Assembly (NCBI GenBank): GCA_016188045.1
Contig: JACPIM010000003.1
Span: forward strand, 181 to 64,180
Direction of reading: 5' to 3'
DNA length: 64,000 bases
DNA from: Candidatus Woesearchaeota archaeon
Lineage (GTDB): Archaea > Nanobdellota > Nanobdellia > SCGC-AAA011-G17 > JACPIM01
This document shows positions 3,319-53,957 of this stretch, piece after piece (the stretch's first letter is position 1; every line of letters starts with the position of its first letter). The notes below the pieces were generated by a model. That model did no database searches. It had not been told where the DNA came from and worked only from the letters and a program-made list of their open reading frames with translations. Made by a program: the position numbers and the translations under genes.

Positions 3319-3439
3319 CGCCCCCACGAGGATTTGAACCTCGGTCTCAACCTTTTTGCTAAAAAGCCGCAAGGTCGAATTCTTACTGGTAATTAACCAT
3401 CAATTTAGGGTTAATAAATCCAGGCTAAACTATGGGGGC
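3319..3439 (-). tRNA. tRNA-Arg(GCG) with two BHB introns (left att copy)
   Basis: Acceptor GCCCCCA/TGGGGGC, T arm CGAGG-TTCAAAT-CCTCG; 34-nt D-loop intron (3384-3417, central helix CTGG/CCAG); 13-nt 37/38 intron (3354-3366, helix TTGC/GCAA); spliced loop TTGCGGA. Confidence 0.92.
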
Positions 3440-3458
3440 AATAAGAAACTATGTTTCT
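3320..3458. repeat. 139-bp direct repeat, left att site
   Basis: Identical by eye to 14712-14850. Confidence 0.95.
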
Positions 3459-6256: not shown

Positions 6257-8362
6257 ATGTCAACTAAATTATATAAACCAAGTTTTTTAAAAAAATTAGC
6301 TATCAACGGATTAGCTTCTATTGTTGGTTTAAGTAATGTGGCCTGTTCACCAGACAGCATTCTTTCTGGATTAATTGGTTTTGGATTTGGGCATATTACT
6401 CAGCAACAAGTACAACAAACATCTACGCCAACACTTGAAGGAATTATAAAACCTACTATGACTCCTCAATTTACTGAAGAGCCAAAGCCAACAGCCACGC
6501 AAACAAATACTCCTGTTCTTCCTACTTATACGCCAACATTTATGTCTACATCAACAGGAATAAGTACCCCGATCAATACGCTTGTACCTACATATACACC
6601 ATCACCTGTTCCAATAAATACATTTACAATAACTCCTACACCAACTAAAACTACAGCTTATACACCGATGCCAACATCATCCTATACTCCTACAAGTATA
6701 CCTACAATAATATTCACAAATACTCCTGAAAGTACCATAACACCAATTCAAACTTCAACATTTACCCCTACACAAATAGAAACATCTATTCCAACTGAAA
6801 TTCCTACTGCAACTTATACTTTTACTCCGACAGCAATAAATACCATTACATCCACTAACACACCACCATCAACGTCAACACCTACTGAAACAAAAACTCC
6901 AACTTTAGAAGCAACTTTAACAGAAACTCCAATTGATACTCCTACTATAATTCCAACAATTGAATCTACATTAACTCCAACATTTACTAATACTCCTTAT
7001 GATACAAATACACCAACTAAAACACCCACATTAACAGATACACCTACTGCTACGGTTACACATACATTTACACCAACTATAACTCCAACAGAAACACCAT
7101 TGCCAACATCAACTCCCATACCAAGTGCAACACCAATACCAACTAATACTTATACACTTACGCCTACTGAAACATTTACTAGTACGATTACTCCTACTTT
7201 AACATTTACGCCAACAGCTACATCTACTTATACTGAAACTGCTACAGATACTCCAACTGTAACTAACACCCCTACTATAACTTCAACAAGCACTAGTACT
7301 TTCACAGTAACACCAACGAATACTAACACACCTACAGCAACTCCTACGTTTACTTCAACTCCAACTGATACAGCTACACCTACAAGTACGCCAACTCTTG
7401 AATATATAACTGGAACAGAATGGGAAGAAATTGCTTCATTAAATATTGCTAGGGAAAGTCATGGAGCAGCCATAGGTAATGATGGTAAAATATATGTTGT
7501 AGGCGGTGTTGTTTTGAATGAAGAACAAGGAAGATTTGTATCTCTAGATACAATAGAGAGATATGACTTTGATCAAAATAGTTGGGAAATATTAAATTCT
7601 AAACTAAACGTATCAAGACATGATTTAGCAGTTGCTTCAGATAATAACGGAAGAATATATGCTATTGGCGGGATACATAATGATTTGAGCAATATACTTA
7701 AAACTGTTGAAAGATTTGACCCATCTAAACCAGAAGATGGTTGGATTTTTGTTGCTGATTTACCTGAAATAACATATGGGTTAAAAACAATACTTGCTCA
7801 AAATAAGATATATGCTATAGGTGGTGCACATCAAGGACTTACCATAGATTATATTCCAGATAAAAAAGTTATAAAATATAATCCTGATAGTAATGCTTGG
7901 GAGTTTGGTAATGAATTAAATATTCCTCGGCTAAATTTTGGAGTAGCAAAAGATAATGAAGATAAGTTATATGTATTTGGTGGCCAAACCCTTGTTTATG
8001 GACCAGATGGACCACTTTATACATATACACTTACAACCGAAAGATTTGACTTAAATGCACCTGATTATGGTTGGAGATTTGTTGCTCCCATATTAATTTT
8101 TGGTGCTGGTGGTGGCGGTATAAGTGTTTCAAGTGCAATGGGTGACTCTGGTAGCATATTCCATATTGGAATAGATAGTGTTGGTACCGTTCAAGTATAT
8201 AAACCACAAAATGGGTTTTGGGAAATTCACTCTAATTTAAATCTCGGTAGATTCAATGCTGTTGCAGTAACGGACGACAAAAACCGTATTTATGTTATAG
8301 GTGGAAGTGCTCCCTTTCAACGTTTATCCTCTGTCCAAAGAACCGTTCTTACAACAAAATAA
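6257..8362 (+). CDS. Surface protein with Thr/Pro-rich stalk and C-terminal Kelch beta-propeller
   Basis: Lipobox-like SNVAC; about 330 aa of TPT repeats; Kelch repeats (KIYVVGG, RIYAIGG, KIYAIGG, KLYVFGG, RIYVIGG). Confidence 0.85.
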   Translation: MSTKLYKPSFLKKLAINGLASIVGLSNVACSPDSILSGLIGFGFGHITQQQVQQTSTPTLEGIIKPTMTPQFTEEPKPTATQTNTPVLPTYTPTFMSTSTGISTPINTLVPTYTPSPVPINTFTITPTPTKTTAYTPMPTSSYTPTSIPTIIFTNTPESTITPIQTSTFTPTQIETSIPTEIPTATYTFTPTAINTITSTNTPPSTSTPTETKTPTLEATLTETPIDTPTIIPTIESTLTPTFTNTPYDTNTPTKTPTLTDTPTATVTHTFTPTITPTETPLPTSTPIPSATPIPTNTYTLTPTETFTSTITPTLTFTPTATSTYTETATDTPTVTNTPTITSTSTSTFTVTPTNTNTPTATPTFTSTPTDTATPTSTPTLEYITGTEWEEIASLNIARESHGAAIGNDGKIYVVGGVVLNEEQGRFVSLDTIERYDFDQNSWEILNSKLNVSRHDLAVASDNNGRIYAIGGIHNDLSNILKTVERFDPSKPEDGWIFVADLPEITYGLKTILAQNKIYAIGGAHQGLTIDYIPDKKVIKYNPDSNAWEFGNELNIPRLNFGVAKDNEDKLYVFGGQTLVYGPDGPLYTYTLTTERFDLNAPDYGWRFVAPILIFGAGGGGISVSSAMGDSGSIFHIGIDSVGTVQVYKPQNGFWEIHSNLNLGRFNAVAVTDDKNRIYVIGGSAPFQRLSSVQRTVLTTK

Positions 8363-9878: not shown

Positions 9879-10100
9879 TTAAAAATGCCTAGCTCTAACC
9901 CAAAAACCTTTTTTATATGCTCTCAACTCGTGTTCCTTTTCTGCTCTCTTGGTAGCATCCTCAATAATCTTATTTATTTTTTCATAGATTATTGGGTAGC
10001 ATTCTTTAGTTAATGTTGCATTTTGATTTATGCTTTTTACTAAAAATCTTAAATATTTTTTAATTAAAATTCTTTCTTTGTAATATGGAGTATAAACCAT
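9879..10100 (-). CDS. Putative minimal histone-fold protein
   Basis: Helix1 (IKKYLRFLVKS), loop (ATLTKE), long helix2 (…KINKIIEDATKRAEKE), terminal VRARHF. Confidence 0.55.
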   Translation of the reverse strand: MVYTPYYKERILIKKYLRFLVKSINQNATLTKECYPIIYEKINKIIEDATKRAEKEHELRAYKKGFWVRARHF

Positions 10101-10101
10101 C

Positions 10102-10590
10102 TTACTTAAAAGAATTTCTCCATGTAGTTGATAGTGAGTCTAGTAGGTTATGCCCTAATAAGCCTATTGCACTTGCAATTCCAATTATGGGCGGGAAAGC
10201 AATAAATAATATAGCTAAAACTATCAAGATAAAACTTTTTTTATGTAACCATAATGATTGGAGTCTATGAAATGGGCCAATATTACTCATGGATTTAATT
10301 GCTAAAAGTGTAAGCAGGATAATAAGAGAAATGGCTTTTTTATCTAGAACAATAAAATAAATGGCTAGTATTAGTCCTATGATTGTAAAATATCTATGAG
10401 CTAAACTTGTTTCATTATCTAAATCTGGTAACAACGTAAAAAATAAACCAATAAGTAAAAAAACTGAGTAAGGATTCATATTAAAAGTGTTCTCTTGAGA
10501 AAAATTAATCCAGTGATACTGAGAATTTAAAGCTATAAATCCAATTAATAAAACTAATCCAAAGATTACGTGGCTCTTTAGGTCTGACAT
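10102..10590 (-). CDS. Membrane-bound metal-dependent hydrolase (YdjM/DUF457-like)
   Basis: SHVIFG, LLPDLD, FHR...WLH, GHNLLD motifs within TM segments. Confidence 0.75.
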   Translation of the reverse strand: MSDLKSHVIFGLVLLIGFIALNSQYHWINFSQENTFNMNPYSVFLLIGLFFTLLPDLDNETSLAHRYFTIIGLILAIYFIVLDKKAISLIILLTLLAIKSMSNIGPFHRLQSLWLHKKSFILIVLAILFIAFPPIIGIASAIGLLGHNLLDSLSTTWRNSFK

Positions 10591-10591
10591 T

Positions 10592-10774
10592 TTATAGCTC
10601 GTTAGATATTATTTCTTGTTTCTTTGGTTTTGGTTCATTCTTGAAGAGGTTGGCGGAATTCCCTATCCTCAAAGAAATATATTTTTTACCATTTTTATCT
10701 ATATTAATCCATCCTGCGACATCTAAATTGCCCTTATAATCTGGTTTCCTTCCATTTGATTTTTTATTTTCCAT
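10592..10774 (-). CDS. Small DUF736-like (putative ssDNA-binding) protein
   Basis: KPDYKG...AGWINIDKNGKKYISL. Confidence 0.5.
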   Translation of the reverse strand: MENKKSNGRKPDYKGNLDVAGWINIDKNGKKYISLRIGNSANLFKNEPKPKKQEIISNEL

Positions 10775-10786
10775 GTTTTATACCTC

Positions 10787-12226
10787 CTAAGATATTATTT
10801 CTAAGGTGTCAATTTTTTTCGGAAGTACTGTAGAAGACTTCCTTACTATGACAGTATATGGGAATAAATTCTTGACATCCTGCTCTTTATTCTGTCTCTC
10901 TAGGTCAAATATTAAGTCTAGAGAGAATTCTGGATGGTTTATTGGGGTGTAAATAGGAGTATATTCCTTGATAGCTTCAATTATATTAAAATGACTTAAA
11001 TGCTCAAATAAGTCATCAAAGGGCATATTGATTAACCCACTTTGACTCCCTCCTTGACATCTTCTATAGAAGACGGAGTTGCCTTCTTTATGTGAAAATT
11101 CAATTAGGTTCTTATCCTCTAGTTCCCTAATCCTTTTCTTTATGGTATTTTTTGATTTTATACTTAAACTCCTTTGTATTATCTCCCTAGGTATTGGTTT
11201 AGTAAAATCTCCTTTAGTGTATTCTTCAACAAAGTCTAAAATTGTTTGTAACCTTTCATCAAAACCCTTATATGATTGGTTAAAGAATCTGCCACATATT
11301 TTGACGGCGTTTAGAAAATCTTGTGGCTCTGAAACAACAAACATAATTCCATTAATTTCTATGGTGTATCTTTGTAATTGAAAAAGCCAAGATATAGCAC
11401 AAGTGAAGGCTAGAAGTTTTTTTAAGTCTCTTTGGGATCGAGGATTATCATAATTTATAATTTCCTTTCCTTCTTCATCCTCTAATAAATAATTCCAATA
11501 TGGTATTAATACATAATCTACTTTCAATGATTCAAATCCTTTTTTTATCCATGAATTATTATTTCCTTGAGACTCAATAAGGGTTAAGGGGTCACCATGT
11601 TTAATAATCGTGTCTTCATTCACTGCCCTTGTTTTATTAGGATTTCCTCTTAAGGCTATATCTATAAAACGAGTTGCCGATTCTTCATCATTCGAAATTT
11701 CTGTTGTAGAATACAATACCGTCTTTTGTTCTTGCTTGCTTGTTCTTGTTGTTTTATAACCAGTTAAAACATCTTTTTTTAATGAAATAGTTCCACCTTC
11801 ACTCATTTGTTTTATGGTTTCTTTTAAATGGTAGTTTGCACCATCAATTTGTTCTTTGTTAACTTCCGAATAACAGATTATATCATATTTAGCTATATCA
11901 TCTTCCATCACGCTTCTAGTTGCGTTAGTTAAGAAAATATAAGAGTCATCTGGAAAGTGTTTCAAGATTGATCTCATTAAATTATCTTTTCCTACTGAAG
12001 TATCCCCAGAAAATTTTATTGATTTTCTTAAACTAGAAGGTTTTAATTTAGAGGTACATGTGCCTATGAATCCGGTCATCTTTTCGTTATCATCATTGAT
12101 GTGGTCTTTGGATAGTTCTTCATGAATATAATACAAAAGTTTAGGGCTTCTAAATTTTGTTTTGGCCTCCGTAAATAAACCAATTTCTTGTTCTGAAACT
12201 TCTTTAGTAGTTTTTATTAGAGTCAT
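10787..12226 (-). CDS. P-loop NTPase with C-terminal wHTH, putative replication helicase of the element
   Basis: Walker A GDTSVGKD, Walker B-like IICYSE, wHTH (NTIKKRIRELEDKNLIE). Confidence 0.65.
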   Translation of the reverse strand: MTLIKTTKEVSEQEIGLFTEAKTKFRSPKLLYYIHEELSKDHINDDNEKMTGFIGTCTSKLKPSSLRKSIKFSGDTSVGKDNLMRSILKHFPDDSYIFLTNATRSVMEDDIAKYDIICYSEVNKEQIDGANYHLKETIKQMSEGGTISLKKDVLTGYKTTRTSKQEQKTVLYSTTEISNDEESATRFIDIALRGNPNKTRAVNEDTIIKHGDPLTLIESQGNNNSWIKKGFESLKVDYVLIPYWNYLLEDEEGKEIINYDNPRSQRDLKKLLAFTCAISWLFQLQRYTIEINGIMFVVSEPQDFLNAVKICGRFFNQSYKGFDERLQTILDFVEEYTKGDFTKPIPREIIQRSLSIKSKNTIKKRIRELEDKNLIEFSHKEGNSVFYRRCQGGSQSGLINMPFDDLFEHLSHFNIIEAIKEYTPIYTPINHPEFSLDLIFDLERQNKEQDVKNLFPYTVIVRKSSTVLPKKIDTLEIIS

Positions 12227-12437
12227 CTGTTTTCCTCCAAAAACTTAAGAATAATTTTTCCCGAACTATTTGGCTAGGCGTAATCTTTTTATTTTCGAGA
12301 ATTTGTCTTGCAGTTCTTTCACGTTCGATAAGCTCTAAAATTTCTTCGTTAAGAAAAAAGGTGCTCTTCTTATAGATGCTCTTTGGTCGAGCAAAATTTA
12401 AATATAAGTTTTCTTTTAAATTATCTGTATTCGTCAT
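12204..12437 (-). CDS. Small RHH-like DNA-binding protein
   Basis: KKSTFFLNEEILELIER...TPSQIVREKL. Confidence 0.55.
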   Translation of the reverse strand: MTNTDNLKENLYLNFARPKSIYKKSTFFLNEEILELIERERTARQILENKKITPSQIVREKLFLSFWRKTDDSNKNY

Positions 12438-13372: not shown

Positions 13373-14659
13373 CTATTTTAATTTATTTATTATCTCTATT
13401 AATCTAGGATTTTCCTTTATTTTTTCAGCTAAGGCTTCTTTCATTGAAGGTATTAGAGCATTTAGCAACTCTTCTTTTAGTTGTTCTCTTTCTATTGCCT
13501 TTTTTCTATCTAATAACCTTTTACAGAATGGACAAACCTTTTCAGCAAAACCAACACTTCGACCGCAGATACATGTTTTAGTCTTTGGCAAAAATTGTTT
13601 ATATTTTGGGTCATCGATTAATCCTCTTTTAGCTAATTCTTTCCTATATGAGTCTAAATTATTACTTAGATCATAAGTAGATAATTGTCTTGTAGAAGTC
13701 CAACCTGCTCTATGTTGTATTTCAACATCACTGTCTCCTCTTAGTCTGCTAAACGTAACACCATTCCTTTTTAACGAATAAGCTGTAATTCTTTTATTTA
13801 ATCCTATTTTTTTACATGCTTTCCTTAATTTCTTATTTATATTATAAGGAGTTAATTGTTTATCTTTTCTTCCATTTGCTATAAATAAAAATGAATCTTT
13901 ATCTTGTTTAAACTTGTGTTGGTCATAAAATTTTAGTAAATAAGGATAACTGTCAATACATTGTAGAAATTTAGTTCCTTCTTTACCATGGGAACTAATA
14001 AAAATTCTCGCATGATTTTCATTTATTTCTAAATCACTTATTCTAGTGTAGCATATTTCTTGTGGTCTCCCAAGCGATTCAACAGATAAATTAAGGTAAA
14101 ATTGCATTTGTGGATCATTACTAAAATAATTCACTAATTTTTCAAATTCTTCCCATGTTAATCTATCATCTTTCAGTTTTTGTTTGCTTTTATCAATTCT
14201 TTTAGATAGGTGTCTTACAACAAAAGGAGTTAATGTATCATCTGTTCTGCCTTTTTCGTCTTTTTCTGGGAATAGGTCTTTCCATATGAATTTTAGATTT
14301 TTAATAAAGTCGGCTTTAGATTGAGAACTTTTGTTTACTTCATGAGCTAAGGCTACTATTTCATTAATATCATCCCTATCACATTCTGTTAAGTTTTTTT
14401 TGGTTGTGTTTACTATAAATAATAATGTACAAAATACTCTTAATCTTCTTACATAACTAGTATCCCTACTTTCAAAGATTTTAGCTAATTTCTTAAAATA
14501 GGTTAAATTGGATGGATTTTTACAATAATATTTCCTAGTAGCTCCTTTTTTTGATTTTGCTTTGGGCAATTCTTTTAACTGCTCTAAATTAGCTATAAAT
14601 CTTTCATACCTTGCTTTATTTCCATATATGTCATCCTCAGCCATTTTAAACTCCTGCAT
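13373..14659 (-). CDS. int: Tyrosine recombinase/integrase with C-terminal Zn ribbon
   Basis: LGRPQEI (R), HGKEG (K), YSLKRNG, HRAGW, STYD (Y); CICG...CPFC; 52 bp from the att repeat. Confidence 0.92.
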   Translation of the reverse strand: MQEFKMAEDDIYGNKARYERFIANLEQLKELPKAKSKKGATRKYYCKNPSNLTYFKKLAKIFESRDTSYVRRLRVFCTLLFIVNTTKKNLTECDRDDINEIVALAHEVNKSSQSKADFIKNLKFIWKDLFPEKDEKGRTDDTLTPFVVRHLSKRIDKSKQKLKDDRLTWEEFEKLVNYFSNDPQMQFYLNLSVESLGRPQEICYTRISDLEINENHARIFISSHGKEGTKFLQCIDSYPYLLKFYDQHKFKQDKDSFLFIANGRKDKQLTPYNINKKLRKACKKIGLNKRITAYSLKRNGVTFSRLRGDSDVEIQHRAGWTSTRQLSTYDLSNNLDSYRKELAKRGLIDDPKYKQFLPKTKTCICGRSVGFAEKVCPFCKRLLDRKKAIEREQLKEELLNALIPSMKEALAEKIKENPRLIEIINKLK

Positions 14660-14710: not shown

Positions 14711-14831
14711 TGCCCCCACGAGGATTTGAACCTCGGTCTCAACCTTTTTGCTAAAAAGCCGCAAGGTCGAATTCTTACTGGTAATTAACCATCAATTTAG
14801 GGTTAATAAATCCAGGCTAAACTATGGGGGC
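14711..14831 (-). tRNA. tRNA-Arg(GCG) with two BHB introns (right copy, native upstream flank)
   Basis: Same sequence as the left copy; introns 14746-14758 and 14776-14809; discriminator A versus G in the left copy. Confidence 0.92.
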
Positions 14832-14850
14832 AATAAGAAACTATGTTTCT
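14712..14850. repeat. 139-bp direct repeat, right att site
   Basis: Identical by eye to 3320-3458. Confidence 0.95.
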
Positions 14851-14904
14851 TATCAACTTCCTTGTAATCACTCGTTTCTTATCAACTTCTTTAAAAACAA
14901 GGGG

Positions 14905-14918
14905 GAAAGGTTTATAAA
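14905..14918 (+). promoter_or_regulatory. BRE/TATA promoter of the Zn-finger/ef1b operon
   Basis: GAAAGG-TTTATAAA ending 22 nt before the ATG at 14941. Confidence 0.6.
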
Positions 14919-14940
14919 TATTTATTGGGGCGGTTTAAGG

Positions 14941-15204
14941 ATGGTTAAAAAAGAAAAAGTTGTTGAGGAAGTTGTATTAGATAAGCCTGTTTTAGAAGAA
15001 GTTAAAGCAGAAAGTAAATTAGAACTTAAAGAAGAAAATCTAATAGATATTAGTAAAGAGCAAGAAATTAGGCTTATACCTGTGGGTTCTGTAATTTTTC
15101 CTTGTCCTAATTGCGGTAAAACTACAGTTAGTAGGACTTTTAGTGAAAGAAGGTTAGCTACACCTTATAAATGTGAAAACTGTAGTTTTGTAGGTCCTAA
15201 TTAG
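14941..15204 (+). CDS. HVO_2753/DUF1610-family Zn-finger protein
   Basis: FPCPNCG...YKCENCSFVGPN; canonical position upstream of aEF-1beta. Confidence 0.85.
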   Translation: MVKKEKVVEEVVLDKPVLEEVKAESKLELKEENLIDISKEQEIRLIPVGSVIFPCPNCGKTTVSRTFSERRLATPYKCENCSFVGPN

Positions 15205-53827: not shown

Positions 53828-53866
53828 TTAAATTTTTAAAGAATTCTTTTGTAATTCTTATTATAA

Positions 53867-53956
53867 GCCGCCGTAGCTCAATGGCAGAGCATATCTTTAT
53901 AAGAGCTTAGCTGCCTTGTAAGCAGAAGGTTATCGGTTCGAGTCCGATCGGTGGCT
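53867..53956 (+). tRNA. tRNA-Thr(TGT) with a non-canonical intron (about position 27/28)
   Basis: GCCGCCG/CGGTGGC; 18-nt intron 53893-53910 with BHB helix GAGC/GCTT; spliced arm TCTGC-CTTGTAA-GCAGA. Confidence 0.88.
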
Positions 53957-53957
53957 T

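What the first reader, a model, noticed from the sequence alone, without database searches (positions are those of the whole stretch)
9879..10100. Candidate minimal histone encoded by the mobile element
Seen: ILIKKYLRFLVKS / NATLTKE / CYPIIYEKINKIIEDATKRAEKE / ...WVRARHF. From recall, this matches the layout of short alpha3-less histone folds (Bd0055-like and haloarchaeal short histones ending TV(M/Q)(A/P)RD(I/L)), with an extra basic insert (ELRAYKKGF) in loop 2. It is the last gene of the putative replication operon. Inference: an element-encoded histone that could package the excised circle or interfere with host chromatin.
Basis: partly seen in the sequence, partly recalled or inferred. 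Interest (0 to 1): 0.65.

Follow-up and report, generated by a model that had tools for sequence, protein, structure and literature searches.

The report
Divergent mini-histone on a DPANN mobile element
The 73-codon gene is real and is a very divergent relative of the small "face-to-face" archaeal histones, carried on an 11-kb integrated mobile element of a tiny DPANN archaeon. It keeps the histone scaffold but has lost most of the usual DNA-contact residues, so what it does is still open.

Summary
The ORF at 9879..10100 (-) exists as described. It is the last of five tightly packed genes in an 11.4-kb integrated element bounded by perfect 139-nt repeats, with a tyrosine integrase.

It is almost an orphan. 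Among 1.8 billion representative proteins there is one relative, which sits in a syntenic sister element and carries an N-terminal zinc ribbon.

Homology to alpha3-truncated (FtF/DUF1931) histones is well supported:
- The best PDB sequence hit is HTkC (9F2C).
- hhalign against the HTkC family gives 95% probability, P = 3e-8 (score 41.6; 200 column shuffles reach at most 17.6).
- An HTkC-family HMM run on all 9,519 open frames of the host genome finds only the host's own 55-aa histone and this ORF.
- The ORF's two-sequence profile picks resident histones out of other DPANN genomes.

HTkC's tetramer arginine, its Glu-Arg-His clamp and the C-terminal ...RH-hydrophobic end are conserved. The RxT loop-2 motif and the loop-1 arginine are lost, and loop 2 carries a 7-residue basic/aromatic insert.

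The fold model that looks like a histone depends on histone sequences in its alignment. Dimerisation and DNA binding could not be tested.

Verdict: a new variant of a known kind. Haloarchaeal plasmids, phages and Borgs are already reported to encode histones.

The parts
9879..10100 (-). 73-aa gene for a divergent alpha3-truncated (FtF-like) histone-fold protein, net charge +9, pI 9.8
10029..10082 (-). Residues 7-24: predicted helix alpha1. K14, K15 and R18 align with HTkC DNA-contact residues K7, S8 and K11.
9927..10001 (-). Residues 34-58: predicted helix alpha2. It holds R52 (= HTkC R45, the tetramer arginine) and E56 (= HTkC E49).
9894..9926 (-). Residues 59-69: enlarged loop 2 with a 7-residue basic/aromatic insert (LRAYKKGFWVR). 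The canonical RKT motif is absent.
9882..9893 (-). Residues 70-73 (ARHF): truncated alpha3 and C-terminus, matching the ARHV end of HTkC. R71 and H72 correspond to R57 and H58.
10102..10590 (-). 162-aa polytopic membrane protein with a weak YdjM-like match, translationally coupled to the histone-like gene. It is 66% identical in the sister element.
10592..10774 (-). 60-aa conserved small basic protein of unknown function, 50% identical in the sister element
10787..12226 (-). 479-aa protein with a C-terminal winged helix and an N-terminal P-loop-like motif (GDTSVGKD). Putative replication or initiator protein; this is an inference.
12204..12437 (-). 77-aa first gene of the operon, with a weak MetJ/ribbon-helix-helix-like match
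13373..14659 (-). Tyrosine integrase of the element
3320..3458 (.). Left copy of the perfect 139-nt direct repeat (att) that bounds the element
14712..14850 (.). Right copy of the perfect 139-nt direct repeat (att)

Best explanation
The gene encodes a highly diverged member of the alpha3-truncated histone superfamily (the FtF/DUF1931 kind), carried as a conserved backbone gene of a small integrative element of a DPANN archaeon.

Shown here:
- homology to FtF histones;
- conservation of the hydrophobic alpha1-L1-alpha2 pattern;
- conservation of the tetramer arginine (R52 = HTkC R45);
- conservation of the HTkC-specific Glu-Arg-His clamp (E56, R71, H72) and of a C-terminus that ends one residue after RH.

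Inferred:
- It folds as a histone-fold handshake dimer and may close into an FtF-like tetramer through R52 and the C-terminal carboxylate.
- Being very basic (+9), it probably binds nucleic acid through the alpha1 N-terminal lysines and a remodelled, enlarged, basic/aromatic loop 2, not through the canonical RKT/L1-Arg site.
- It most likely acts as an architectural protein for the element's DNA (after excision or during replication), or on host chromatin, which is built from a single 55-aa FtF histone plus Alba.

My odds: histone-fold homologue about 0.85; binds DNA on its own about 0.55.
For: Sequence searches against solved structures:
- The best match among 177,635 distinct PDB sequences is HTkC (9F2C), both for the single protein (E = 0.011) and for the two-sequence profile (E = 0.0086). 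The alignment is ungapped over alpha1-L1-alpha2.

Profile-profile comparisons:
- hhalign of the family (A2) against 25 HTkC-type histones: probability 95.1%, P = 3.1e-8, 52 columns.
- 200 column-shuffled controls: mean score 9.7, SD 2.3, maximum 17.6, against 41.6 for the real alignment. The reversed sequence scores 10.4.
- Against a second alpha3-histone type, the 64-aa DPANN proteins: probability 96%, P = 4e-9.

Reciprocal searches:
- The HTkC-family HMM run on all 9,519 six-frame open frames of the host genome gives two hits only: the host histone (23.8 bits) and this ORF (22.0 bits, E = 6.5e-5). The next best is 9.0 bits.
- In the window alone, this ORF scores 22.0 bits and the next best 5.4 bits.
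- The A2 profile searched over 400 genomes of the phylum returns resident histones ending RKTLMGRDV as 6 of the top 11 weak hits after the window's own ORF.

Conserved functional residues:
- The R45, E49, R57 and H58 equivalents and the C-terminal end are conserved in both family members. Their roles in HTkC come from bioRxiv 10.64898/2025.12.06.692711.

Structure:
- AlphaFold2 with a 21-sequence alignment gives pLDDT 86.6 and helix 7-24 / loop / helix 34-58 / loop / helix 70-72.
- The Foldseek top hit is 9F2C (TM 0.79 normalised to the target, rmsd 2.0 A), followed by H2B chains.

Other:
- Net charge +9, pI 9.8.
- dN/dS about 0.24.
- The syntenic position is conserved in a second element, even though the large protein upstream is replaced.
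Against: - No Pfam, NCBIfam or PHROG histone family is matched. HTkC itself also falls below Pfam's cut-off.
- The RxTxxxxD motif is not conserved. HTkC DNA contacts K9, R22, R51, K52 and T53 are replaced by Y, T and G/F/W or by H-E-L-R, depending on where the gap is placed.
- hhalign against the host's own 55-aa histone type gives only 28.6% probability.
- AlphaFold2 with only the two family sequences gave a plain two-helix hairpin (pLDDT 71) with no Foldseek match. The histone-like model therefore depends on histone sequences in its alignment and is not independent evidence.
- The family has only two known members, both from one sample series.
- No dimer, tetramer, DNA-binding or expression evidence could be obtained.
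Confidence: 0.6

Rival explanations
1. Histone decoy or modulator. The protein keeps the histone-fold assembly surfaces but not the DNA-contact loops. It co-assembles with the host's single FtF histone, as a mixed dimer or a mixed dimer-of-dimers tetramer. This would loosen or re-pattern host chromatin, or prevent silencing of the element. The analogy is with plasmid- and phage-borne H-NS homologues and antagonists in bacteria.
For: - The tetramer arginine and the exact C-terminal end that it contacts in HTkC are conserved, while R22, R51, K52 and T53 are lost.
- The host has exactly one histone gene, an FtF type with a canonical RKT...D motif, plus Alba.
Against: - The protein resembles the host's own histone type much less than it resembles HTkC-type or 64-aa DPANN-type histones. 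That does not favour a co-evolved interface.
- A net charge of +9 suggests direct nucleic-acid binding.
- No interaction evidence of any kind was obtained.
Confidence: 0.2
2. Histone fold used as a protein-protein or regulatory module of the element rather than as a chromatin protein. It could be a partner of the upstream membrane protein or of the replication protein, or a sequence-specific regulator, as with NF-Y, TAF or CENP-X-type histone-fold proteins.
For: - It is translationally coupled to a conserved membrane protein, and the trio 60 aa / 162 aa / histone-like is kept while the large protein is swapped.
- The homologue has an N-terminal C4 zinc ribbon and an acidic linker.
- There is a weak CENP-X match for the homologue.
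Against: - The CENP-X match is far below threshold (E = 0.12-0.17).
- The closest relatives are all chromatin histones.
- No partner has been identified.
Confidence: 0.12
3. Not a histone at all. It is a generic Lys/Glu-rich helical hairpin whose similarity to HTkC comes from amphipathic-helix composition.
For: - The AlphaFold2 model from the two-sequence alignment is a simple hairpin with no Foldseek match.
- Curated family libraries give no histone hit.
- There are weak competing hits: PoNi_C (E = 0.071) and phrog_5153 (E = 0.0065).
Against: - Column shuffles and the reversed sequence never approach the real hhalign score.
- Reciprocal genome-wide searches single out only histones and this ORF.
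- Position-specific matches cover R45, E49, R57, H58 and the chain end.
Confidence: 0.08

Closest known systems
HTkC (TK1040), face-to-face (FtF) alpha3-truncated histone of Thermococcus kodakarensis; PDB 9F2C, DNA complex 9T30; Schwab et al. 2024 (PMC11390915) and bioRxiv 10.64898/2025.12.06.692711
   Same: - Ungapped alignment over alpha1-L1-alpha2, with the same L1 length.
- Conserved tetramer arginine (R45/R52).
- Conserved Glu-Arg-His clamp (E49-R57-H58 / E56-R71-H72).
- The chain ends one residue after RH (ARHV / ARHF).
- Very short alpha3.
   Different: - A 7-residue insert in the loop-2 region.
- RKT is replaced; depending on gap placement the aligned residues are G-[FY]-W or H-E-L-R.
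- The loop-1 arginine that enters the minor groove (R22) is Thr.
- K9 is Tyr.
- About 10 extra N-terminal residues.
- Much more basic (+9 against +2).
- Encoded on a mobile element rather than as a highly expressed chromosomal gene.
Resident DPANN alpha3 histones (DUF1931): the host's own 55-aa protein (G000 C17:41958-42122) and the 64-aa type ending RKTLMGRDV
   Same: - Same superfamily.
- The 64-aa type shares the Pro at the start of alpha2 (YLPAL / CYPII) and gives hhalign probability 96%.
   Different: - The resident proteins keep RxTxxxxD and N45, and they are chromosomal, lying next to thermosome and aminoacyl-tRNA synthetase genes.
- The host type has a shorter L1 and aligns only over half of alpha2.
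'Phage histones' of Schwab et al. 2024 (for example A0A2E7QIQ9)
   Same: An alpha3-type histone fold encoded by a mobile genetic element and lacking the RxTxxxD motif.
   Different: - Phage histones carry a C-terminal helical tetramerisation domain and come from tailed-phage or bacterial metagenomes.
- This protein ends at the truncated alpha3 and sits on a capsid-less archaeal integrative element.
- No sequence comparison was made, because I did not hold those sequences.
ZZ histones (bacterial N-terminal ZZ zinc finger fused to an alpha3 histone), Schwab et al. 2024
   Same: The sister-element homologue (L004:3148-3495) has an N-terminal zinc-binding module in front of the alpha3-histone-like domain.
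   Different: - It has a single CxxC-x8-CxxC ribbon, not a two-site ZZ domain.
- It is archaeal and element-borne.
- The window's protein has no zinc module at all.
Extra FtF histones on haloarchaeal plasmids (Schwab 2024) and histones of Borg elements (PMC12660748)
   Same: They are precedents for histone genes carried by archaeal extrachromosomal elements.
   Different: - I did not see or compare the plasmid or Borg sequences; Schwab 2024 classes the plasmid copies as FtF histones, and neither paper, as far as I read them, describes a variant like this one.
- Here the DNA-contact motif is lost, and the carrier is an 11-kb integrative element in a 1-Mb DPANN genome.

Membership tests
alpha3-truncated histones (Schwab et al. 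2024) | Histone fold: alpha1-L1-alpha2-L2-alpha3 | tested here: met
   - Profile-profile probability is 95-96% against two alpha3-histone subfamilies, supported by shuffle controls and reciprocal HMM searches.
- The AlphaFold2 model with histones in the alignment shows the fold.
- The model built without histones in the alignment was uninformative.
alpha3-truncated histones (Schwab et al. 2024) | alpha3 reduced to 3-4 residues at the chain end, with alpha2 shorter than in nucleosomal histones | tested here: met
   - The model has helix 70-72 and the chain ends at residue 73. alpha2 is 34-58, 25 residues.
- The C-terminal ARHF aligns with ARHV of HTkC.
- The model depends on its alignment.
alpha3-truncated / FtF histones | Conserved RxTxxxxD motif in L2/alpha3 (RxTxxxxH in HTkC) | tested here: not met
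   R and T are replaced in every alignment tried: G..W, or E/L..R. Only the last position is kept, as His, as in HTkC.
FtF histones | Tetramerisation arginine (HTkC R45; R48 of the HMM logo) that contacts the C-terminal carboxylate of the opposing dimer | tested here: met
   R52 is the only invariant column across the 21-sequence alignment. The chain end is at the same distance as in HTkC.
FtF histones | Second tetramer residue, Asn (N52 of the logo; N45 in D4GZE0) | tested here: inconclusive
   The residue is Glu (E56), as in HTkC (E49), which is nevertheless a tetramer.
FtF histones | Handshake homodimer that closes into a toroidal tetramer | not testable with these tools
   Only single-chain prediction was available. 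No multimer model could be made.
FtF histones | Non-specific DNA binding or wrapping through the alpha1 N-terminus, L1 and L2 | not testable with these tools
   By alignment, K7, S8 and K11 are kept as K14, K15 and R18. K9, R22, R51, K52 and T53 are lost. Net charge is +9.
Pfam DUF1931 (PF09123) / CBFD_NFYB_HMF (PF00808) | Score above the curated gathering threshold | tested here: not met
   There is no hit even at E <= 10. As a control, HTkC itself scores 18.8 bits against a cut-off of 21.4.
Phage histones (Schwab 2024) | C-terminal alpha-helical tetramerisation domain after the alpha3 fold | tested here: not met
   The protein ends at the truncated alpha3, residue 73.
ZZ histones (Schwab 2024) | N-terminal ZZ zinc finger with two sites (C4 and C2H2) | tested here: not met
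   The window's protein has no Cys cluster. The homologue has a single C4 ribbon.

The most novel reading that the evidence does not exclude
The element's mini-histone is an 'anti-histone'. It keeps the FtF assembly surfaces (the tetramer arginine, the clamp and the C-terminal carboxylate position) but not the DNA-gripping loops. It would insert into the host's FtF histone tetramers as a dominant-negative or re-specifying subunit, letting a small integrative element escape or rewire chromatin in a DPANN archaeon. That would be an archaeal counterpart of the H-NS antagonists and 'stealth' homologues carried by bacterial mobile elements.
Probability: 0.12. Interest if true: 0.8.

Novelty: new variant of a known kind. 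Interest (0 to 1): 0.5.

Why it matters
FtF (alpha3-truncated) histones were recognised only in 2023-2025 as major chromatin proteins of many archaea and some bacteria. Very little is known about how mobile elements deal with that chromatin.

This protein is a natural variant that separates two parts of the family's design:
- the assembly scaffold is kept: the fold core, the tetramer arginine, the E-R-H clamp and the chain end;
- the canonical DNA-contact loops are lost and replaced by an enlarged basic/aromatic loop.

It sits in the conserved backbone of a small integrative element whose host has a single FtF histone. That gives a compact, testable system for two questions. Do archaeal mobile elements carry their own packaging or architectural histone? 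Do they tamper with the host's?

Three things limit the wider significance. The family has only two known members. The function is untested. Histone genes on archaeal plasmids, on phages and on Borgs are already reported.

Tried and rejected
- Curated family scans gave no histone family. This covered Pfam, NCBIfam and PHROGs, including E-values up to 10. The weak PoNi_C, phrog_5153 and E1_dh hits have no contextual support, and bona fide alpha3 histones do not share them.
- The word-indexed 5.8-billion protein search found only the protein itself.
- The exhaustive 1.8-billion representative search found one relative.
- Scans of viral, metagenome and genome contigs with the family alignment found nothing.
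- tblastn against plasmid records found nothing meaningful.
- AlphaFold2 with the two-sequence alignment gave a hairpin, and Foldseek found no PDB match. This was uninformative.
- Foldseek against viral models gave only negligible hits to giant-virus H4.
- The genome search 'own' with the HTkC alignment listed only the host histone. A local unfiltered hmmsearch shows that the ORF is a clear second hit, so that miss came from the tool's first-look filter.
- I looked for more family members downstream of homologues of the 162-aa membrane protein. The two weak relatives are chromosomal, with no histone-like neighbour.
- I looked for an empty integration site in the same-genus genome G317. Its contig ends inside the att-like sequence, so the result is inconclusive.
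- I tried to identify the 479-aa protein through PDB and plasmid searches, without result.

Full report
**Observation**

The minus-strand ORF at 9879..10100 encodes 73 residues: MVYTPYYKERILIKKYLRFLVKSINQNATLTKECYPIIYEKINKIIEDATKRAEKEHELRAYKKGFWVRARHF. It is the last of five co-directional, tightly packed genes: 12204-12437, 10787-12226, 10592-10774, 10102-10590 and 9879-10100. Its ATG follows the upstream stop codon by one base.

**Context**

- The window is about 30% G+C.
- It carries archaeal housekeeping genes: RadA, aEF-1beta and an HVO_2753-type zinc finger.
- The whole assembly is 1.02 Mb in 24 contigs and 92.6% complete.
- Close homologues of the host's histone are labelled Nanoarchaeota or Woesearchaeota. 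The host is therefore a DPANN archaeon.
- Perfect 139-nt direct repeats at 3320-3458 and 14712-14850 bracket an 11.4-kb island. A tyrosine integrase lies at 13373-14659 (Pfam E = 3.5e-11; PHROG integrase E = 2.5e-14).
- The island also carries a PIN toxin, a Pro/Thr-rich Kelch-type secreted protein and other cargo.
- The reading of the region as a mobile element is therefore sound.
- The word 'replication' for the operon is only inferred. The 479-aa protein shows a winged helix (LexA_DNA_bind E = 3.6e-4) and a P-loop-like GDTSVGKD motif with a faint VirB11 match. It has no PDB or plasmid relatives.

**Rarity and reality of the gene**

- The word-indexed search of 5.8 billion proteins found only the protein itself, on five contigs.
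- The exhaustive HMMER search of 1.84 billion representatives found one relative, P0002 (E = 1.2e-11, 48% identity).
- P0002 lies in a syntenic operon of a sister element from the same series of sequencing runs (L004): RHH, then 475 aa, 63 aa, 160 aa, then P0002.
- In L004 the likely true start is the ATG one base after the upstream stop (MECLYCG...). This gives 115 residues: a CxxC-x8-CxxC zinc ribbon, an acidic linker, then the shared domain.
- Over 61 ungapped codons the two genes give pN 0.30 and pS 0.66, so dN/dS is about 0.24. This is a real, constrained coding gene.
- The neighbouring 162/160-aa and 60/63-aa proteins are 66% and 50% identical.
- The large 479/475-aa proteins are not detectably related outside the winged helix.
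- The histone-like gene therefore belongs to a conserved backbone that outlasts replacement of the large protein.
- Scans of viral, metagenome and genome contigs found no further members.

**Is it a histone? Sequence evidence**

- Curated libraries say nothing. The solved FtF histone HTkC itself also stays under Pfam's cut-off (18.8 bits against 21.4), so this silence carries little weight.
- phmmer against all PDB sequences puts HTkC (9F2C) first, at E = 0.011. The alignment is ungapped: residues 11-62 of the query against 4-55 of HTkC.
- The two-sequence profile does the same, at E = 0.0086.
- 9F2C is the face-to-face, alpha3-truncated histone of Thermococcus kodakarensis (PMC11390915).
- hhalign of the family against 25 Thermococcales HTkC-type histones gives probability 95.1% and P = 3.1e-8 over 52 columns.
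- 200 column shuffles of the query alignment give a mean score of 9.7, SD 2.3 and a maximum of 17.6, against 41.6 for the real one. The reversed sequence scores 10.4.
- Reciprocally, an HMM of the HTkC family was run without filters on all 9,519 six-frame open frames of the host genome. It gave exactly two hits. One is the host's own histone (23.8 bits, E = 1.7e-5). The other is this ORF (22.0 bits, E = 6.5e-5). The next best frame scores 9.0 bits. The same holds within the window.
- Going outward, the two-sequence profile was searched in six frames over 400 genomes of the phylum. It returned weak hits at about 1e-3 per genome. Six of the top eleven after the window's own ORF are resident alpha3 histones ending [KR]xT[LV]MG[RK]D[VI].
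- Against an alignment of those histones, hhalign gives 96% and P = 4e-9. Because they were selected by this same profile, that number is somewhat circular.
- Against the host's own 55-aa type the match is weak: 28.6% probability, over half of alpha2 only.

**Residue-level reading**

The HTkC preprint (bioRxiv 10.64898/2025.12.06.692711) reports three things:
- R45 makes the tetramer by salt-bridging the C-terminal carboxylate of the opposing dimer. The R45A mutant is a dimer.
- HTkC has His instead of the Asp of RxTxxxxD, and holds L2/alpha3 through E49-R57-H58.
- DNA is contacted by K7, S8, K9, K11, R22, V23, R51, K52, T53 and Y55.

In the alignments made here:

| HTkC residue | Role in HTkC | P0001 | P0002 |
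|---|---|---|---|
| R45 | tetramer salt bridge | R52 (only invariant column of 21 sequences) | R |
| E49 | clamp | E56 | E |
| R57-H58 | clamp | R71-H72 | R-H |
| chain end after RH | contacted by R45 | one hydrophobic residue (F) | one hydrophobic residue (I) |
| K7, S8, K11 | DNA contact | K14, K15, R18 | R, N, K |
| K9 | DNA contact | Tyr | Tyr |
| R22 | DNA contact, enters minor groove | Thr | Thr |

- The RKT segment has no counterpart. Seven extra residues sit in the L2 region. Their exact placement differs between MAFFT and hhalign in global and local modes.
- The conserved features there are Y62, G65, [FY]66, W67 and [RK]69.
- The protein is much more basic than HTkC or the host histone: net charge +9 against +2 and +3.

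**Structure prediction**

- With only the two family sequences, AlphaFold2 gives a two-helix hairpin (pLDDT 71; helices 5-28 and 34-72), and Foldseek finds nothing.
- With 19 histone sequences added to the alignment, the model has pLDDT 86.6 and pTM 0.64. It shows helix 7-24, loop, helix 34-58, an 11-residue loop 59-69 and a short helix 70-72.
- Foldseek then ranks HTkC first (probability 1.0, TM 0.79 normalised to the target, rmsd 2.0 A), followed by H2B chains and HBb.
- Because the alignment was made of histones, this shows compatibility only. It is not independent proof.

**Host chromatin**

- The genome has one histone gene, a canonical 55-aa FtF/DUF1931 protein with R41, N45, R47, T49 and D54.
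- It also has one Alba gene.
- The 64-aa histone type that resembles the element protein more closely was not found in this host. In other DPANN lineages it is chromosomal, lying next to thermosome and tRNA-synthetase genes.

**Interpretation**

The homology claim is well supported; my estimate is 0.85. The family fails one defining feature of alpha3 histones, the RxTxxxxD motif. I therefore file it as a divergent variant of that superfamily, not as an ordinary FtF histone.

Mechanistically, the kept scaffold residues argue for a histone-type dimer and possibly an FtF-like tetramer. The high charge and the basic/aromatic loop argue for nucleic-acid binding through a remodelled surface. Its position at the end of the element's conserved backbone operon argues for a role on element DNA or on host chromatin.

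The more novel reading also fits the pattern of what is kept and what is lost: a subunit that joins host FtF histone assemblies and alters them. It has no direct support, and the protein's low similarity to the host's own histone weakens it.

**Comparison with the literature**

- Schwab et al. 2024 note extra FtF histones on haloarchaeal plasmids. They also define 'phage histones', which have an alpha3 fold without RxTxxxD but with a C-terminal tetramerisation helix, and bacterial ZZ-finger histones.
- Borg elements encode histones (PMC12660748).
- My literature searches found no description of a histone-fold gene on a small DPANN integrative element, or of this loop-2 variant. The library is not exhaustive.
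- Earlier notes of this scan had described the same island and listed a 'histone-like' gene in it, and had described ordinary FtF histones in other genomes.

**Limits**

- The family has two members from one sample series.
- There is no multimer model and no experiment.

Noticed in passing
G000 C17:41958-42122 (L001:1435-1602): This is the host's only detectable histone: a canonical 55-aa FtF/DUF1931 protein, MAELLVVRSKIKDATKCNVAGDVAEALSKKVEEIIKAAEKRCDSNGRKTIKAYDL. It lies just downstream of what looks, by eye, like a class II aminoacyl-tRNA synthetase gene (430 aa). One Alba gene lies at C8:33465-33659.
   Followed up: partly
L004:3148-3495: The only homologue of the 73-aa protein carries an N-terminal CxxC-x8-CxxC zinc ribbon and a strongly acidic linker in front of the histone-like domain. 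The called start (127 aa) overlaps the upstream gene. The ATG one base after that gene's stop (115 aa) mirrors the arrangement in the window.
   Followed up: partly
window 10787-12226 vs L004:1062-2489: The large central proteins of the two sister elements (479 aa and 475 aa) share no detectable similarity by BLASTP outside the C-terminal winged helix. Yet the flanking RHH, 60-aa, 162-aa and histone-like genes are 48-66% identical or more. This looks like a module swap inside a conserved backbone.
   Followed up: partly
window 3320-3458 and 14712-14850: These are the perfect 139-nt att repeats. The right copy overlaps the first 27 nt of the HVO_2753-type zinc-finger gene (14824-15204). In the same-genus genome G317 the homologous contig ends inside this sequence.
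   Followed up: partly
window 53866-53957: ARAGORN calls a 92-nt tRNA-Tyr with anticodon 'ata', and Rfam gives tRNA at 49 bits. The length and the odd anticodon suggest an intron-containing tRNA that has been mis-parsed.
   Followed up: no
window 6257-8362: Element cargo: a 701-aa secreted protein with a roughly 350-residue Pro/Thr-rich low-complexity region, followed by a Kelch-type beta-propeller.
   Followed up: no
G000 (method): the genome search 'own' with the HTkC-family alignment reported only the host histone. An unfiltered local hmmsearch on six-frame open frames gives the 73-aa ORF 22.0 bits. The tool's first-look filter can miss short divergent hits.
   Followed up: yes
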